From the NCBI GenBank assembly GCA_041674285.1, contig JBAYVZ010000005.1, positions 5,176 to 69,175 of the forward strand: a stretch of 64,000 nucleotides of DNA, given 5' to 3'. Source of the DNA: Minisyncoccota bacterium. GTDB taxonomy: Bacteria > Patescibacteriota > Minisyncoccia > Phycocordibacterales > UBA9973. Each line of letters begins with the position of its first letter. Within the stretch, counting starts at the first letter, position 1. Below the pieces are notes generated by a model. It made no database searches. It was given only the letters and a program-made list of their open reading frames with translations, and was not told the DNA's origin. Shown piece by piece: positions 26,383 through 43,078 of the stretch. The position numbers were made by a program, and so were the translations under genes.

Positions 26383-26763
26383 TTAGAAAGATGTACCTAC
26401 AAATTTGATAGTGCCCTTTGATGCTGTAATTGGCTCGCAGGGAGTACCCAACATAAGACATGACCCACCAGAACTATACTGACCCAAGAGATAGCTACCT
26501 TGTTTTACGGTACCCCGAGAATAAGTCTTTGTTCCGGCCAGAGGAGAATACAGATATGTACCACTACTGCCCTTGGGTCCACTGATGGTCAACAGATAAT
26601 CCCCTGGACTACAAGTACAAGACTCTTTTACCATCACTTTTCCTCCAAAATAACTTCCACTATAAGAAGCCTCTGTCTCTGTGTATGGGAATAGTGGTGA
26701 CATAAACAAACAAATTAAAATTAACAACCCGAGTTTTTTCAAATCTACTAGAATATTTTGCAT
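26383..26763 (-). CDS. Small secreted hypothetical protein
   Basis: Signal peptide LGLLILICLFMSPLF. Confidence 0.35.
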   Translation of the reverse strand: MQNILVDLKKLGLLILICLFMSPLFPYTETEASYSGSYFGGKVMVKESCTCSPGDYLLTISGPKGSSGTYLYSPLAGTKTYSRGTVKQGSYLLGQYSSGGSCLMLGTPCEPITASKGTIKFVGTSF

Positions 26764-26785
26764 ACATATATGATATAATATTTTT

Positions 26786-27733
26786 GTGAATAAAGAAAAT
26801 AAAAAATCTTATCTCCCTAGTCACGAATTCGTGGCCAGAGTCATCATCCTCGTCCTACTACTAGGGGCTGCAGTAGGGGGCAATGCTCTATATAAATACT
26901 TTAAAAACAAAAAAGACAATAAATCCACCTCTATCCCCACAGACACCATCAGACTCGAGAGTGGGCTGACTGTTTCAGATGTGATGTCAAAGGATTCAAA
27001 TAAAAATGGAATAGCAGATTGGGAGGAATCTCTATGGGGCCTAGATCCTAAATCTGATGGTTTTTCAAATAAAACAATAATAGACAATAAAAAGAAAGCC
27101 CTAAATACACAAAATGGGACAATGGACACAAATACAGAAGAAAAAGAGGACGAAACAAAAAAATTAGCTATAGAATTCTTCTCTTCTTTTATGTCTCTCA
27201 AGGAATCTGGAGCTTTAAATACAAATGCCGTCGAGAACTTAACTTCAGTTATAGGGCAAGAAGTAGGGAATACAGAAACACCAGATACATACATAGGTAA
27301 TAGTATAAAAACAACCAAATCAAACAAAGAAAATCTTGCAAAATACCAAAAAGACCTCGAAAATATAATAACAAAGCACGAAAACAGATTGCCAGGCACA
27401 GAACTCGAAATAATGGCTCGCGCCATGGAAAATGAAGATAGTGCTCTCATCGGAGATCTAGCTCAGATATCAAACGAATACAGGAGCCTGGCAAAAGACA
27501 TGACCACAATAACAGCGCCGATGAATGTGGCGCAAAATCATCTTTTGCTTATAAATGCTTATGACAAGATTGGTATATCTATAATCAAAATGTCCGACGC
27601 ATTAACAAATCCTGTAGCTGCAGCCACAGGCACCGCAATGTATACAAGATATACAAATGAGATCAACCAAATAGTAGAAGAAATGAAGACAACATTTATA
27701 GATAATGGTATACTTGAAAAAGATGCGAACTAG
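26786..27733 (+). CDS. Membrane-anchored hypothetical protein (first gene of the T4SS-like island)
   Basis: N-terminal TM VIILVLLLGAAVGG. Confidence 0.35.
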   Translation: MNKENKKSYLPSHEFVARVIILVLLLGAAVGGNALYKYFKNKKDNKSTSIPTDTIRLESGLTVSDVMSKDSNKNGIADWEESLWGLDPKSDGFSNKTIIDNKKKALNTQNGTMDTNTEEKEDETKKLAIEFFSSFMSLKESGALNTNAVENLTSVIGQEVGNTETPDTYIGNSIKTTKSNKENLAKYQKDLENIITKHENRLPGTELEIMARAMENEDSALIGDLAQISNEYRSLAKDMTTITAPMNVAQNHLLLINAYDKIGISIIKMSDALTNPVAAATGTAMYTRYTNEINQIVEEMKTTFIDNGILEKDAN

Positions 27734-40090: not shown

Positions 40091-40091
40091 T

Positions 40092-41747
40092 ATGAAAAAG
40101 ATAATAGTAGCGATTTTATTTGTTTTACCAATGATAGTATCAACAGCCAAGATAGAGGCTGTTTCCCTAGTAAGTAACAGCTTGGAGGTAAAAGATAAAA
40201 AAGTAACCATGAAAGTAAACCTATCAGCAATATCTAATGCTGATAAAGAGATACTGACAGCAAAAGTCTTTTCTACCTTCGAAAACAACAAACAGATCGG
40301 AGTATTCACAAAAACTTTCACAAAAGAAATTAGCAACATGGGTACACCCCAAATGCTAGCCATAGACATGCCTGATTCAGCAAAAGATGGGAATTATACT
40401 TTTACTATTGATTCAAATGAAGGGGATTCAATACCAGCGACACCATTTGACTACAAAGCTCCAGTAGTAAATACTCCGAACACAACTCCGTGTATTGTAG
40501 ACAAGGCGAATTTTTACCCTTATGGCGAAACTGGTGATACTTTCTACAAAGAGGGTAGCACAAAAGTAAGTATCGTGATACAGACTGTTAACTGTGCAAA
40601 CAAAGATTTAAAATTAACCGTCAAGGAACTAGACAGGTGCCCAGCTAGTTCTATCCCAAATTTCAACTGTAACGACGCATTGAGTAGTTCAGGGCTGGAA
40701 AATAAAACAATAATAATGCCAGCTACCGAGTCAGTCACACTAAACTACATAGCAGGAGAAGAAAATTGTGAGACTCTAGGTTTAGCGGATGGATATGATT
40801 GTCTCTATTACTTTGAACTAGCCACTCCAGATGGGGAAAAGTGGTCGTCTATGGACCGCGCAGGGGGGAGAATATCGTATGAGTGTGATGGTATTTGCAA
40901 CAAAGACTGGGAACAAGCAGGACCCCAGGAAGACACAGTAGACCCGGGGGCAATAGACCCACGCATAGCAAATGATGAGTACAATCTCCTGGCTCCAATC
41001 GGTGAGATAAAATCGATAGATGACACAAAACAATTAGGAGACTACATTAATCTAATGGTGAAAATTTTTCTAGGCATATGTGGTGCATTGGCTGTGATAA
41101 TGATTGTCATATATGGAATACAGTGGATGGGTACAGATTCTGTATTTGGAAAGACAGAATCAAAGCAAAAGATAGGTGGAGCACTGATGGGACTAGTACT
41201 AGCACTAGGATCATGGATGCTACTAAATACTATAAACCCAGATCTACTAGGCGGAGAGCTCAATATCGGACAAGCAAATATAGAAGTAGAAGAAGACGCT
41301 ATGAGTTCAAACGATGCTCTGCCACCACTAGGTACGGCAGTAGCGAGGTGTCCAGAAGGTATATACCAAGTGCAGACAGCTGGTGGAGTATTCCCAGTAT
41401 GCAAAACAATGCAAGATAACTTAAAAAAGATGATAGACCTGGCATGGAGTCAGAATATTAAAATTACAGGTTTTGGATTTAGGTCAAAAACTAGACAAGA
41501 GGAATTGCGTGCACAAAATTGTGGAGCAGCAAATGTATACAAGCAAAATGCAAGATGTAAGCCAGACACAGCAATCCCGGGGACTTCAATGCATGAGAGC
41601 GGTCTTGCTTTTGACTTTAGATGCGAAGGTTCAAAGATAGCAACCAAAGACAACAAATGTTTCCTCTGGCTAAAAGCAAATGCAAGTAAATATAATCTTA
41701 AAAATCTATCTAGTGAACCTTGGCACTGGTCAACAACTGGACACTAA
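40092..41747 (+). CDS. Surface protein with a VirB2/TrbC-like two-helix hairpin and a C-terminal M15 (VanY/LAS) peptidoglycan-hydrolase domain
   Basis: IFLGICGALAVIMIVIYGIQWMGTDSVFGKTESKQKIGGALMGLVLALGSWMLL (compare VirB2 ...GISWMFGRAS...); the C-terminal SMHESGLAFD (SxHxxGxAxD) and EPWHW (ExxH) are M15 zinc motifs. Confidence 0.5.
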   Translation: MKKIIVAILFVLPMIVSTAKIEAVSLVSNSLEVKDKKVTMKVNLSAISNADKEILTAKVFSTFENNKQIGVFTKTFTKEISNMGTPQMLAIDMPDSAKDGNYTFTIDSNEGDSIPATPFDYKAPVVNTPNTTPCIVDKANFYPYGETGDTFYKEGSTKVSIVIQTVNCANKDLKLTVKELDRCPASSIPNFNCNDALSSSGLENKTIIMPATESVTLNYIAGEENCETLGLADGYDCLYYFELATPDGEKWSSMDRAGGRISYECDGICNKDWEQAGPQEDTVDPGAIDPRIANDEYNLLAPIGEIKSIDDTKQLGDYINLMVKIFLGICGALAVIMIVIYGIQWMGTDSVFGKTESKQKIGGALMGLVLALGSWMLLNTINPDLLGGELNIGQANIEVEEDAMSSNDALPPLGTAVARCPEGIYQVQTAGGVFPVCKTMQDNLKKMIDLAWSQNIKITGFGFRSKTRQEELRAQNCGAANVYKQNARCKPDTAIPGTSMHESGLAFDFRCEGSKIATKDNKCFLWLKANASKYNLKNLSSEPWHWSTTGH

Positions 41748-43078
41748 AATATAAAAATATGTCACGAAATACAATATTAATGATAATAGGATTTATAGCT
41801 ATCGCCTCTGTGGGTGGTGGATATATTTACTATGCCACGAACAAACCAGTAGGGGACACTAGTAGTGAGAACAATACATCAACAATAGATAAGATATTTT
41901 CTCCTTTTGGTTTTGGGTCTAAAACAAACAATGACTCAACACCTAGTCCTACAGATGCCCTAGGCAGTGCCATAAAAAATATAGTCAGTGGTATAAATAT
42001 AAATTCAAAGTTTACACAGCTCACTGATTTTGCTGTATCAGGGGTGACATTTTTCACAGATGAGAGACCACTACCACCAAAGCCAGTAGAAGAAAAAGTG
42101 GCAGAGATAGCAAAGGGCACAACAACAAAAAACACAAAAATAAAAACACCTCCTGAGCCAACAACAGAAAAAGTTCCATCGATAAGATATATGAAGAAGA
42201 GTAGTGGTCATATCTATCAGACATATCTAGATACTAAAGCTACTGGTAAAATATCCAACTCTACTATACCCGAAGTTTATGATGGACTATTTGGATCAAA
42301 TGCAAACAATGTAATATATAGACTCCTAGGCGAAGATGGTATGACAATAAAAACAGCAGCGGGCACACTAGGGGGTAGCAAGAGTGGATTCCTCCCAGAC
42401 AATGTGATAGATGTATCAATAGCCCCAAACGGAGATAACTTCTTTTATTTACAGCAAAATACAAACGGCTCTACTGGGACAATAGGGTCATTTACTGAAG
42501 CTAAAAGAACTCTAATACTAAACTCAACATTTTCTGAATGGCTAACACAATGGCCAATAAATCAAACTATATTCCTGACAACAAAAGCATCATACAACAC
42601 GGAGGGTTATATATACTCACTACCAACAGTAAAAGGAAGTCTGAGGAAGGTAATAGGGGGGATAAAAGGACTAACTACATTAGTGAGTCCATCAGGGGAC
42701 AAGATTCTATATAGTAGTAGTACAAACAATGGTCCTGTTCTTGGAATATATACTATATCTACAAATAAATATACACCGCTGAATTTATTTGGACTACCAG
42801 AAAAATGTGTGTGGACAAATGATAGTGTCAGATTGTACTGCGCTATTCCAAATATAGTAGAGGGTGTCGCATATCCAGATATATGGTATCAAGGAAAGGT
42901 CTCATTCAATGATAAATTTATCAGAATAAATACTGAGATAGGATCCTCGAGCGAAGTATCCAATTCAATCTACGAGACACCAATAGATGCAATAAAACTG
43001 GCAGTAGACGAAGCAGAAAGGACACTATTCTTTATAAATAAAAAAGACTACACTCTCTGGAGCTTGAACCTACAATAA
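41720..43078 (+). CDS. Membrane-anchored hypothetical protein
   Basis: TM ILMIIGFIAIASVGGGYIYYA. The real start is probably the Met at 41759, to avoid overlap with the upstream gene. Confidence 0.35.
   Translation: MALVNNWTLKYKNMSRNTILMIIGFIAIASVGGGYIYYATNKPVGDTSSENNTSTIDKIFSPFGFGSKTNNDSTPSPTDALGSAIKNIVSGININSKFTQLTDFAVSGVTFFTDERPLPPKPVEEKVAEIAKGTTTKNTKIKTPPEPTTEKVPSIRYMKKSSGHIYQTYLDTKATGKISNSTIPEVYDGLFGSNANNVIYRLLGEDGMTIKTAAGTLGGSKSGFLPDNVIDVSIAPNGDNFFYLQQNTNGSTGTIGSFTEAKRTLILNSTFSEWLTQWPINQTIFLTTKASYNTEGYIYSLPTVKGSLRKVIGGIKGLTTLVSPSGDKILYSSSTNNGPVLGIYTISTNKYTPLNLFGLPEKCVWTNDSVRLYCAIPNIVEGVAYPDIWYQGKVSFNDKFIRINTEIGSSSEVSNSIYETPIDAIKLAVDEAERTLFFINKKDYTLWSLNLQ

What the first reader, a model, noticed from the sequence alone, without database searches (positions are those of the whole stretch)
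26383..43078. 16.7-kb plus-strand island between rsmA and jag encoding a minimal Gram-positive-type type IV secretion-like apparatus plus large surface proteins
The island has twelve consecutive plus-strand genes, tightly spaced. In order:

- a secreted protein (126 aa, opposite strand);
- a TM-anchored protein (315 aa);
- a secreted protein (722 aa);
- a Gly-rich anchored protein (542 aa);
- a VirB6/TcpH-like 10-TM protein (1025 aa);
- a soluble protein (385 aa);
- a VirB3/PrgI-like 2-TM protein (137 aa);
- the VirB4 N-domain;
- the VirB4 ATPase;
- a secreted protein (328 aa);
- the VirB2-like/M15 hydrolase protein (551 aa);
- an anchored protein (452 aa).

The signature trio VirB3-like, VirB4 and VirB6-like, together with a membrane-anchored peptidoglycan hydrolase, matches MPF-FATA (pCW3 Tcp / pCF10 Prg-like) organisation. 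No relaxase, VirD4/TcpA coupling ATPase or oriT is present in the window.

This suggests a protein-translocation or contact apparatus rather than conjugation. That would fit the episymbiotic lifestyle proposed for CPR bacteria, where virB4/virB6-type genes have been reported. Most of the other seven proteins have no recognisable domains and are candidate substrates or structural parts. Two A-element copies lie inside the island.
Basis: partly seen in the sequence, partly recalled or inferred. Interest (0 to 1): 0.7.

Follow-up and report, generated by a model that had tools for sequence, protein, structure and literature searches.

The report
Known Patescibacteria type IV secretion locus
This is the chromosomal type IV secretion-like gene cluster already described for ultrasmall Patescibacteria (CPR) bacteria, here in a Paceibacteria genome next to the replication origin: real and clearly functional, but an ordinary member of a published kind.

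Summary
The ORFs are exactly where the finding puts them. The T4SS reading holds:
- The 611-aa protein is a CD1110/PrgJ-type VirB4 ATPase.
- The 217-aa protein is the separate TrsD-like VirB4 N-domain.
- The 137-aa protein is PrgI/VirB3.
- The 551-aa protein is a VirB2-like hairpin fused to an intact VanY/M15 domain.

No relaxase or coupling ATPase was found among the window's large ORFs.

It is not an island. The same gene order, uvrD-rsmA-...-jag-yidC-dnaA-dnaN, recurs in about 80 Paceibacteria species. GC content matches the flanks, and VirB4 and TrsD evolve like housekeeping genes (dN/dS 0.013 and 0.007). The minus-strand 126-aa gene and the 542-aa gene are not conserved parts.

This kind of system is published (Wang 2023; Quinonero-Coronel 2025). 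The orthologous RAAC4_OD1_1 locus is catalogued there gene for gene.

Details I did not find described:
- The cell-wall enzyme domain on the pilin-like protein changes class between orthologs.
- Its N-terminal module is replaced within one species.
- VirB4 is more conserved than DnaA.
- A 120-nt inverted-repeat element has inserted between TrsD and VirB4.

The parts
26786..27733 (+). p315: bitopic membrane protein (TM at residues 14-32) with a helical extracellular domain and a conserved DxDxDG-like motif (DSNKNGIADWEE, residues 70-81). It is a conserved accessory gene of unknown role.
   Evidence: Hydropathy. Orthologs at the same position in 38 loci at about 27% identity. Conserved motif. 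No Pfam, NCBIfam or PDB sequence match.
27705..29873 (+). p722: secreted or anchored, mostly helical protein with conserved Cys pairs, a glycine-zipper-like hydrophobic segment (residues 524-553), a coiled coil and a Gly-rich tail. It is a conserved accessory gene of unknown role.
29894..31522 (+). p542: N-terminally anchored Gly-rich protein with an acidic double-disulfide motif (residues 186-205). It is a variable, lineage-specific surface protein and not a conserved part of the system.
   Evidence: Found in only about 8 of 80 loci, over about 22% of its length. NCBIfam acid_disulf_rpt hit below its cut-off.
31613..34690 (+). p1025: extended VirB6-like polytopic membrane protein. It has an N-terminal Ig-like extracellular domain, a TM core (residues 270-620, nt 32420-33472) and a long hydrophilic cytoplasmic tail ending in a His/Gly-rich stretch.
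34703..34830 (+). Copy of the ~125-nt element with terminal inverted repeats TCCCGTTAGAGAT...ATCTCTAAYGGGA. It ends at the ATG of p385.
34822..35979 (+). p385: cytoplasmic protein with a conserved N-terminal ~100 aa and a conserved C-terminal ~45 aa around a variable, low-complexity middle. It is a conserved accessory gene between VirB6-like and VirB3-like, of unknown role.
   Evidence: No TM segment. Orthologs in 48 loci. Conservation profile. No family hit.
35995..36408 (+). p137: PrgI/VirB3-like protein with two TM segments.
   Evidence: Pfam PrgI PF12666, E 2.6e-9, 37.9 bits, above the 27-bit cut-off. Two hydrophobic segments. Orthologs in 75 loci at about 49% identity.
36457..37110 (+). 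p217: TrsD-like protein, equivalent to the N-terminal domain of VirB4 and encoded as a separate gene.
   Evidence: NCBIfam hits: VirB4_plasma positions 102-235 (E 7e-12), CD1110 positions 2-120 (E 6.6e-7), TrsD/TraD (E 1.8e-6). It is a separate ORF directly upstream of VirB4 in 77 of 77 loci. dN/dS 0.007.
37113..37232 (+). Recent insertion of the inverted-repeat element between TrsD and VirB4, with a 5-bp duplication (ATGGG). The conspecific genome L001 lacks it.
   Evidence: L001 reads TTATAAT-ATGGG-AATTTT at this junction. The window reads ATGGG-[element]-ATGGG.
37233..39068 (+). p611: VirB4 ATPase of the CD1110/PrgJ (MPF-FATA) type. Walker A is ATSGAGKS (nt 38028-38051) and Walker B is LLVVDE (nt 38646-38663).
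   Evidence: NCBIfam conju_CD1110, 380 bits against a 325-bit cut-off. Pfam P-loop_TraG, E 6e-25. hhalign to pCF10 PrgJ 99.7%. 75-99% identity across 80 species. dN/dS 0.013. Motifs located.
39104..40090 (+). p328: secreted protein of constant length (~328 aa). It is a conserved accessory gene, possibly beta-rich or Ig-like, of unknown role.
   Evidence: Signal-like segment. Orthologs in 75 loci, about 34% identity over the full length. Only a weak PKD_3 hit. No PDB sequence hit.
40092..41747 (+). p551: signal peptide, variable Ig-like N-terminal module, VirB2-like two-TM pilin hairpin (residues 313-380, nt 41028-41231) and VanY/M15 peptidoglycan peptidase domain (residues 438-548, nt 41403-41735). 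Zn-site motifs SMHESGLAFD and EPWH are intact.
   Evidence: Pfam VanY E 3.4e-11; T4SS_pilin E 1.8e-4, below the cut-off. T4SS_pilin hits in 41 of 43 orthologs, best 9e-10, and TrbC/VirB2 in 14. Per-protein architectures. Motifs. The RAAC4 ortholog is listed as VirB2 in PMC12102498 Table S3.
41720..43078 (+). p452: N-terminally anchored extracellular protein, probably a beta-propeller. It sits in the position that PrgL holds in pCF10.
   Evidence: TM at residues 18-36. Orthologs in 68 loci at about 36% identity. Weak PD40 hits in 5 of 45 orthologs and PG_binding_1 in 4 of 45. No PDB sequence hit. pCF10 gene order.
26333..26377 (.). Strong terminator-like hairpin that closes rsmA and bounds the cluster on the left.
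   Evidence: 20-pair stem.
43075..43115 (.). Strong terminator-like hairpin shared by p452 and the convergent jag gene, bounding the cluster on the right. Weaker terminator-like hairpins at 31524-31556 and 36393-36420 may split the cluster into three transcription units.

Best explanation

Shown here:
- It encodes the inner-membrane platform of a monoderm T4SS: an extended VirB6-like channel protein (p1025), PrgI/VirB3 (p137), and a two-gene VirB4 motor (TrsD-like p217 plus ATPase p611, with intact Walker A and B motifs).
- It encodes a VirB2-like hairpin protein carrying an intact VanY/M15 cell-wall peptidase (p551).
- It encodes five conserved envelope or cytoplasmic proteins of unknown fold or role (p315, p722, p385, p328, p452).

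Inferred mechanism:
- VirB4 hexamers dock on VirB3/VirB6 and use ATP to extract and assemble VirB2-like subunits and the accessory surface proteins into a wall-spanning, possibly pilus-like structure.
- The fused hydrolase opens the peptidoglycan locally.
- The structure works at the contact with a host cell, moving proteins out or host-derived molecules in, rather than carrying out relaxase-dependent conjugation.

The motor is under housekeeping-grade constraint, while the exposed parts diversify quickly. That pattern fits an essential host-interaction machine.
For: Component identities:
- VirB4: NCBIfam CD1110 family above its cut-off, and PrgJ at 99.7% by hhalign.
- TrsD-like N-domain.
- PrgI above the Pfam cut-off.
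- VirB2-like hairpin in 41 of 43 orthologs, plus VanY.
- Catalytic motifs intact.

Core-locus status:
- Same order, uvrD-rsmA-...-jag-yidC-dnaA-dnaN, in most of 80 Paceibacteria species.
- GC content like the flanks.
- No tRNA or other Rfam RNA in the 64 kb.
- No relaxase, T4CP or integrase among the 20 large ORFs outside the locus and its immediate flanks that were scanned.

Selection:
- dN/dS is 0.007 for TrsD and 0.013 for VirB4, against 0.003 for DnaA and 0.011 for DnaN. The surface proteins are at 0.08-0.35.
- Median VirB4 identity is 80.5% against 65.3% for DnaA, and VirB4 is higher in 55 of 55 loci.

Literature:
- The same component set, the lack of a relaxase, the separate TrsD and the proximity to dnaA/ksgA are described in PMC12102498.
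- The orthologous RAAC4_OD1_1 genes 531/533/534/535/537 are catalogued there as VirB6/VirB3/TrsD/VirB4/VirB2.
- The Saccharibacteria counterpart is essential for epibiotic growth (PMC10633639).
Against: - What is transported, and in which direction, is unknown for any member of this kind. Nothing in the sequence settles it.
- No VirB8-like component was identified. hhalign against PrgL and PrgD was negative, and no structure was predicted for p315, p328 or p452.
- The T4SS_pilin hit of the window's own protein is below Pfam's cut-off.
- A protein with large domains on both sides of the hairpin may not polymerise like a true pilin.
- T4CP homologs exist elsewhere in the related RAAC4 genome, so DNA transfer cannot be excluded from the cluster's content alone.
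Confidence: 0.85

Rival explanations
1. It is an integrated conjugative element or its remnant (a genomic island) whose relaxase, coupling protein and integrase lie outside the window or have been lost.
For: The VirB4 belongs to the family used by conjugative elements of Firmicutes. The gene order parallels pCF10 PrgH-PrgI-PrgJ-PrgK-PrgL. T4CP-like genes occur elsewhere in the related RAAC4 genome.
Against: - Identical chromosomal position and order in about 80 species.
- No GC shift.
- No tRNA, integrase or relaxase in 64 kb.
- Housekeeping-grade purifying selection on VirB4 and TrsD, so the genes are not decaying.
- Only 109 relaxases were found in 3,035 Patescibacteria genomes (PMC12102498).
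Confidence: 0.03
2. It is a DNA- or nucleotide-uptake machine, analogous to H. pylori ComB or the archaeal Ced system. It would import host nucleic acids for a cell that cannot make nucleotides.
For: - There is no relaxase or T4CP in the cluster, as in ComB-type importers.
- p611 gives weak CedB and CedD hits.
- In class ABY1 the T4SS co-localises with competence and recombination genes (PMC12102498).
- Reviewers speculate about uptake of host molecules (PMC12857230).
Against: - In S. epibionticum, competence depends on type IV pili and ComEC. A comEC deletion is viable while the T4SS is essential, so the essential role is not ComEC-linked transformation (PMC12857230).
- The Ced hits are far weaker than the conjugative-VirB4 hits.
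- There are no competence genes in this cluster.
Confidence: 0.1
3. It is only a surface-structure or adhesion assembly system. VirB4 builds a VirB2-like filament or anchors adhesins and wall hydrolases, and no substrate passes through a channel.
For: VirB4 is the pilus-biogenesis ATPase in Gram-negative systems (established knowledge). The cluster is rich in surface proteins. The N-terminal module of p551 is replaced within a species, and its hydrolase class varies between species, as expected for exposed, host-facing parts.
Against: A full VirB6/VirB3/VirB4 translocon is retained. This reading is not exclusive of secretion.
Confidence: 0.2

Closest known systems
Patescibacteria-clade T4SS as catalogued by Quinonero-Coronel et al. 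2025 (PMC12102498), e.g. Parcubacteria RAAC4_OD1_1 genes 531-537
   Same: - Orthologous locus. VirB4 is 87% identical (L010).
- Same order: VirB6, unknown, VirB3/PrgI, TrsD, VirB4, unknown, VirB2-like.
- No relaxase or T4CP nearby.
- Next to dnaA, dnaN and ksgA.
   Different: Nothing essential differs. This window adds a 120-nt element between TrsD and VirB4, a lineage-specific 126-aa gene and a lineage-specific 542-aa gene. The paper leaves p315, p722, p385, p328 and p452 unassigned. I found no mention there of the hydrolase fused to the pilin-like protein.
Southlakia epibionticum T4SS, SEML1_0006-0019 (Wang et al. 2023, PMC10633639)
   Same: A Gram-positive-type subunit set with pilin-like genes, cell-wall hydrolases downstream of virB4 and no relaxase or coupling protein in the cluster. 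It was shown to be essential for epibiotic growth.
   Different: It is from a different class (Saccharimonadia). It has an array of six small VirB2-like pilins and separate peptidase and lysozyme genes. Here there is a single pilin-like hairpin fused to the hydrolase. Essentiality was not tested for Paceibacteria.
pCF10 Prg/Pcf conjugative T4SS of Enterococcus faecalis (MPF-FATA prototype)
   Same: PrgJ and p611 are clearly homologous (hhalign 99.7%). p137 is in the PrgI family. The order VirB6-VirB3-VirB4-hydrolase-bitopic protein is parallel.
   Different: pCF10 has the T4CP PcfC, the relaxase PcfG, the adhesin PrgB and VirB8-like PrgL/PrgD, has no VirB2-like protein, and is a plasmid. None of the accessory proteins here matches a pCF10 protein.
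pGO1/pSK41 Trs system (TrsD + TrsE)
   Same: The VirB4 N-terminal domain is encoded as a separate small protein (TrsD) just upstream of the ATPase (NCBIfam TrsD/TraD hit; PMC12102498).
   Different: It is a conjugative plasmid system with a relaxase and a coupling protein.
R388 TrwI/VirB6 (PDB 7o3v) and Legionella DotA (PDB 9ngy)
   Different: Sequence identity is only 6-11%. p1025 is an 'extended' VirB6 with an Ig-like N-terminal ectodomain and a ~400-aa hydrophilic tail. Its host is a monoderm with no outer-membrane core complex.

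Membership tests
Patescibacteria-clade T4SS (MPF-FATA-derived, chromosomal) | VirB4 of the MPF-FATA lineage that groups with Patescibacteria VirB4s | tested here: met
   NCBIfam CD1110 family, 380 bits against a 325-bit cut-off. PrgJ 99.7% by hhalign. 75-99% identity to the VirB4 of 80 Paceibacteria genomes, including RAAC4_OD1_1, which is in the published dataset. No phylogenetic tree was built.
Patescibacteria-clade T4SS (MPF-FATA-derived, chromosomal) | Separate TrsD-like gene adjacent to virB4 | tested here: met
   p217 matches VirB4 N-terminal and TrsD models. 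It is a separate ORF in 77 of 77 loci.
Patescibacteria-clade T4SS (MPF-FATA-derived, chromosomal) | PrgI/VirB3 homolog near virB4 | tested here: met
   Pfam PF12666, 37.9 bits against a 27-bit cut-off.
Patescibacteria-clade T4SS (MPF-FATA-derived, chromosomal) | VirB6 homolog near virB4 | tested here: met
Patescibacteria-clade T4SS (MPF-FATA-derived, chromosomal) | VirB2-like pilin gene(s) near virB4 | tested here: met
   PF18895 scores 21.9 bits, below the 26.6-bit cut-off, for the window protein. It is detected in 41 of 43 orthologs, best E 9e-10, and TrbC/VirB2 is detected in 14.
Patescibacteria-clade T4SS (MPF-FATA-derived, chromosomal) | No relaxase in or near the cluster; chromosomal site near dnaA/ksgA in Paceibacteria | tested here: met
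   Pfam scans of the 20 large ORFs outside the locus and its immediate flanks found none. The flanks are rsmA, jag, yidC, dnaA and dnaN.
Patescibacteria-clade T4SS (MPF-FATA-derived, chromosomal) | Required for epibiotic growth | not testable with these tools
   Shown only for S. epibionticum (PMC10633639). Here there is only indirect support from strong purifying selection.
Conjugative MPF-FATA T4SS (pCF10/pCW3/ICE type) | Relaxase and oriT associated with the T4SS | tested here: not met
   No relaxase family hit in the window. oriT cannot be recognised from sequence alone.
Conjugative MPF-FATA T4SS (pCF10/pCW3/ICE type) | VirD4/TcpA-type coupling ATPase in the gene cluster | tested here: not met
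   None in the 64 kb. T4CP-like genes lie far from virB4 in the related RAAC4 genome. The rest of this genome was not available.
Conjugative MPF-FATA T4SS (pCF10/pCW3/ICE type) | VirB8-like bitopic protein (PrgL/TcpC/TraM) | tested here: inconclusive
   hhalign of the p315, p452 and p328 families against PrgL and PrgD was negative, but single-sequence targets are insensitive.
Genomic island / ICE | Patchy distribution, compositional shift, integrase, and a tRNA or repeat boundary | tested here: not met
   Synteny is conserved in about 80 species. GC content is like the flanks. There is no tRNA and no integrase among the large ORFs.

The most novel reading that the evidence does not exclude
The single VirB2-like protein of Paceibacteria would be the host-facing working end of the machine, not a conventional pilin or a mere housekeeping VirB1 analogue. 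It is a membrane hairpin that presents, outside the cell, a rapidly replaced Ig-like recognition module and an exchangeable cell-wall-cutting head. The head is VanY/M15, NlpC/P60, amidase, YkuD or lytic transglycosylase, depending on the species. On this reading the enzyme class tracks the peptidoglycan chemistry of each lineage's host, and the T4SS breaches the host wall to open a conduit for uptake or effector delivery.
Probability: 0.12. Interest if true: 0.7.

Novelty: already known. Interest (0 to 1): 0.3.

Why it matters
The Patescibacteria T4SS is the first T4SS reported to be essential for its bearer's growth, and its substrate is unknown, so each well-annotated example helps.

This window does not change the picture. 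It confirms it for a Nomurabacteria-like Paceibacteria genome and adds comparative details that could guide experiments:
- The motor (TrsD plus VirB4) is more conserved than DnaA.
- The exposed parts evolve fast.
- The pilin-like protein carries an exchangeable wall hydrolase and an N-terminal module that differs between two conspecific genomes.
- Five conserved accessory proteins (p315, p722, p385, p328, p452) define a Paceibacteria-specific gene set that still lacks any assignment, including the missing VirB8 role.

Tried and rejected
- **Sequence searches for VirB6 in p1025.** Pfam, NCBIfam, a Pfam scan of 38 orthologs and a profile search of PDB sequences all found nothing. The precomputed PF19590 tags on a few homologs were not reproduced.
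- **hhalign against pCF10.** I compared ten family alignments with the 13 pCF10 Prg/Pcf proteins. Only VirB4 against PrgJ scored.
- **An apparent p385-PrgI relationship.** The 99.7% hhalign score was an artefact of one ORF (L057) running across a masked N-gap, and I rejected it.
- **Profile searches of PDB sequences for p452, p328 and p315.** Nothing found.
- **AFDB Foldseek search.** The library was unavailable.
- **'Split, broken VirB4'.** Rejected, because the two-gene arrangement is conserved in 77 of 77 loci and the stop and start codons are adjacent without the inserted element.
- **'Island/ICE'.** Rejected on synteny and composition.
- **Rfam scan of the window.** No known RNA family, so the inverted-repeat element is not a catalogued RNA.

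Full report
**1. Observation**

The ORF list reproduces every gene in the finding at the stated coordinates:

| ORF | Coordinates | Strand |
|---|---|---|
| p126 (126 aa) | 26383-26763 | - |
| p315 (315 aa) | 26786-27733 | + |
| p722 (722 aa) | 27705-29873 | + |
| p542 (542 aa) | 29894-31522 | + |
| p1025 (1025 aa) | 31613-34690 | + |
| p385 (385 aa) | 34822-35979 | + |
| p137 (137 aa) | 35995-36408 | + |
| p217 (217 aa) | 36457-37110 | + |
| p611 (611 aa) | 37233-39068 | + |
| p328 (328 aa) | 39104-40090 | + |
| p551 (551 aa) | 40092-41747 | + |
| p452 (452 aa) | 41720-43078 | + |

The flanks are UvrD and RsmA/KsgA upstream, and Jag/KhpB, YidC, DnaA and DnaN downstream. The cluster therefore lies beside the replication origin. 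A hydropathy scan agrees with the proposed topologies. Strong terminator-like hairpins bound the cluster at 26333-26377 and 43075-43115. Weaker ones at 31524-31556 and 36393-36420 may divide it into three transcription units.

**2. Component identities**

- **p611** is a VirB4 ATPase of the Firmicutes CD1110/PrgJ family. NCBIfam scores 380 bits against a 325-bit cut-off, Pfam P-loop_TraG gives E 6e-25, and hhalign to pCF10 PrgJ gives 99.7%. Walker A (ATSGAGKS) and Walker B (LLVVDE) are intact.
- **p217** matches the N-terminal part of VirB4 models and the TrsD/TraD family. Together, p217 and p611 cover CD1110 model positions 2-120 and 183-732.
- **p137** is a PrgI/VirB3-family protein above Pfam's cut-off.
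- **p551** combines a VanY/M15 domain (E 3e-11) with a VirB2-like hairpin.
  - The VanY motifs SMHESGLAFD and EPWH are intact.
  - The hairpin's PF18895 hit is sub-threshold in this protein but is found in 41 of 43 orthologs, best E 9e-10. TrbC/VirB2 is found in 14.
- **p1025** gave no sequence-level hit, even as a 38-sequence profile.
  - Its AlphaFold model has a TM core with pLDDT about 90.
  - Foldseek is weak but consistent. DotA is rank 2 and TrwI is at ranks 16-17, with no hit at E<=0.001.

**3. Accessory proteins**

- p315, p722, p385, p328 and p452 have no Pfam, NCBIfam or PDB-sequence matches.
- p452 orthologs show weak PD40 propeller repeats, and a few carry PG_binding_1.
- p315 carries a conserved DxDxDG-like motif.
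- p722 is helical, with a glycine-zipper segment. Its model (pLDDT 63) found only generic helical matches.
- None of these families matches any pCF10 Prg/Pcf protein by hhalign, so no VirB8-like component was identified.
- An apparent p385-PrgI relationship was an artefact of an ORF crossing an assembly gap.

**4. Not an island**

- The VirB4 protein is 99% identical to a Candidatus Paceibacterota MAG, and 75-90% identical to about 80 other Paceibacteria/Nomurabacteria species, including RAAC4_OD1_1. An identical p1025 is annotated in a Candidatus Paceibacterota MAG.
- tblastn of all window genes against these loci shows the same order almost everywhere: uvrD, rsmA, p315, p722, p1025, p385, p137, p217, p611, p328, p551, p452, jag, yidC, dnaA, dnaN.
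- p542 is present in only about 8 loci. p126 is in none, although it belongs to a real family of small secreted proteins.
- GC content does not differ from the flanks.
- There is no tRNA or other Rfam RNA in the window.
- No relaxase, coupling ATPase or integrase appears among the 20 large ORFs outside the locus and its immediate flanks that were scanned.
- The TrsD/VirB4 split is conserved in 77 of 77 loci.

**5. Selection**

- Across 79 species the median identity is 80.5% for VirB4, 65.3% for DnaA, 59% for TrsD, 55.6% for DnaN and 27-41% for the envelope proteins. VirB4 exceeds DnaA in 55 of 55 loci. One caveat is that the loci were chosen by VirB4 similarity, but the gap is far larger than sampling noise.
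- Against the conspecific genome L001, dN/dS is as follows:

| Gene | dN/dS |
|---|---|
| DnaA | 0.003 |
| TrsD (p217) | 0.007 |
| DnaN | 0.011 |
| VirB4 (p611) | 0.013 |
| p328 | 0.083 |
| p452 | 0.10 |
| p551 | 0.35 |

- The motor is thus under housekeeping-grade constraint, while the exposed parts diverge quickly.

**6. Features of p551 that I did not find described**

- The C-terminal wall-active domain differs in class among orthologs at the same position. Counts among 43 orthologs: VanY 9, Peptidase_M15_4 3, NlpC/P60 8, Amidase_5 5, YkuD 4, SLT-type 4, CHAP 2.
- The middle pilin-like hairpin is constant, and the N-terminal part is often TIG/Ig-like.
- Between the window and L001, where VirB4 is 99% identical, the first ~105 residues are unrelated to the first ~280 residues of the ortholog. 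The rest is 88% identical and the VanY domain nearly identical.
- Searches of the held literature for such a fusion found nothing beyond the general papers.

**7. Comparison with the literature**

- Wang et al. 2023 (PMC10633639) showed that a Gram-positive-like T4SS with pilin genes and no relaxase or coupling protein is essential in Southlakia epibionticum.
- Quinonero-Coronel et al. 2025 (PMC12102498) surveyed 3,035 Patescibacteria genomes. They describe:
  - a Patescibacteria VirB4 clade nested in MPF-FATA;
  - an adjacent TrsD;
  - PrgI/VirB3;
  - a divergent VirB6;
  - VirB2-like pilins;
  - rarity of relaxases;
  - in Paceibacteria, proximity to dnaA, dnaN, rnpA and ksgA.
- Their Table S3 lists the RAAC4_OD1_1 orthologs 531/533/534/535/537 as VirB6/VirB3/TrsD/VirB4/VirB2, with T4CP-like genes elsewhere in that genome. 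This matches my assignments one to one.
- A 2025 review discusses the same systems (PMC12857230).
- The finding is therefore a correct rediscovery of a known kind.

**8. Mechanism**

Shown: the gene content, intact catalytic motifs, conserved order and purifying selection.

Inferred from established T4SS biology:
- VirB4 hexamers dock on VirB3/VirB6.
- They power extraction and assembly of VirB2-like subunits and substrate passage.
- The fused hydrolase opens the wall.
- The lack of a relaxase argues against conjugation.

Not known: the substrate, the direction of transport, and whether a filament is made.

The rivals (ICE remnant, DNA-uptake machine, pure surface-structure assembly) are weighed in the rival-explanations section.

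**9. Side observation: the inverted-repeat element**

- A ~120-135-nt element with 13-14-nt terminal inverted repeats (TCCCGTTAGAGAT...ATCTCTAACGGGA) occurs eight times in the window. Each copy ends exactly at the ATG of the next gene.
- The copy between TrsD and VirB4 is absent from the conspecific L001. It is flanked by a 5-bp duplication, ATGGG.
- Copies in L042 and L053 sit at other start codons.
- The ends pair into a stable stem, with z about -5.
- The element matches no Rfam family.

**Verdict**

The system is already known, and interest is modest.

Noticed in passing
window 1780-1900, 7937-8054, 11612-11744, 23270-23394, 34703-34830, 37113-37232 (+); 43575-43706, 44805-44924 (-); also L001:1291-1409, L001:10596-10712, L042:9219-9335, L053:7343-7456: A family of ~120-135-nt intergenic elements has 13-14-nt terminal inverted repeats (TCCCGTTAGAGAT...ATCTCTAACGGGA) and an inner hairpin (GGAAATGTAAACATTTCC). 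The 3' end always abuts the ATG of the next gene. The copy at 37113-37232 is absent from a conspecific genome and is flanked by a 5-bp duplication, ATGGG. Five of eight copies have ATGGR on both sides. This looks like a MITE-like mobile element that targets start codons. Alternatively, it could be a processed RNA stem that leaves leaderless mRNAs. It matches no Rfam family.
   Followed up: partly
window 37233-39068 versus 45516-46868, and the 79 related loci: The VirB4 ATPase is more conserved across Paceibacteria species than DnaA: median 80.5% against 65.3% identity, and higher in 55 of 55 loci. That is unusual for a secretion-system gene.
   Followed up: yes
window 40158-40406 (p551 residues 23-105) versus L001:6558-7400: The N-terminal extracellular module of the pilin-like/hydrolase protein is replaced by an unrelated, longer module in a genome whose VirB4 is 99% identical. 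The rest of the protein is 88-100% identical.
   Followed up: partly
window 34628-34687 (p1025 residues 1006-1025): The VirB6-like protein ends in a His/Gly/Asp-rich tail (HGGGHDDHGGGHDDHGHGGH), and the homolog consensus also ends in a His-rich stretch. This may be a metal-binding cytoplasmic tail on an 'extended' VirB6.
   Followed up: no
window 26383-26763 (-): The 126-aa secreted protein belongs to a real family of ~120-aa proteins (159 cluster representatives). Its ~90-aa domain also occurs at the C-terminus of larger proteins. It is absent from this position in all 80 related loci.
   Followed up: partly
window 44476-44599, 51068-51193, 51763-51832: A second repeat family, about 50 nt and containing CACCCCTCAAGAGGGGAAT palindromes, is found in direct and inverted copies around yidC/rnpA and between the PBP and tyrS genes near the origin.
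   Followed up: no
window 3313-3446, 4424-4551, 7771-7909: Three copies of a ~126-nt sequence at 82-94% identity, one of them inverted, lie next to sugar-metabolism genes (epimerase, aminotransferase, GlmS).
   Followed up: no
window 16328-18013, 19883-22882 (60-nt tandem repeats at 21824-22003), 18435-19634 (-): Upstream of uvrD lie two large ORFs without any Pfam match (561 and 999 aa, the latter with 20-aa tandem repeats) and a LysM + M23 peptidase. These may be further surface or wall proteins. They were not tested for linkage to the T4SS.
   Followed up: no
window 56696-58396 (-): A PilB/GspE-type ATPase (T2SSE, E 3e-120) of a type IV pilus or type II secretion system lies 13 kb downstream.
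   Followed up: no
whole window: No Rfam family, not even a tRNA, reaches its gathering score anywhere in the 64 kb.
   Followed up: no
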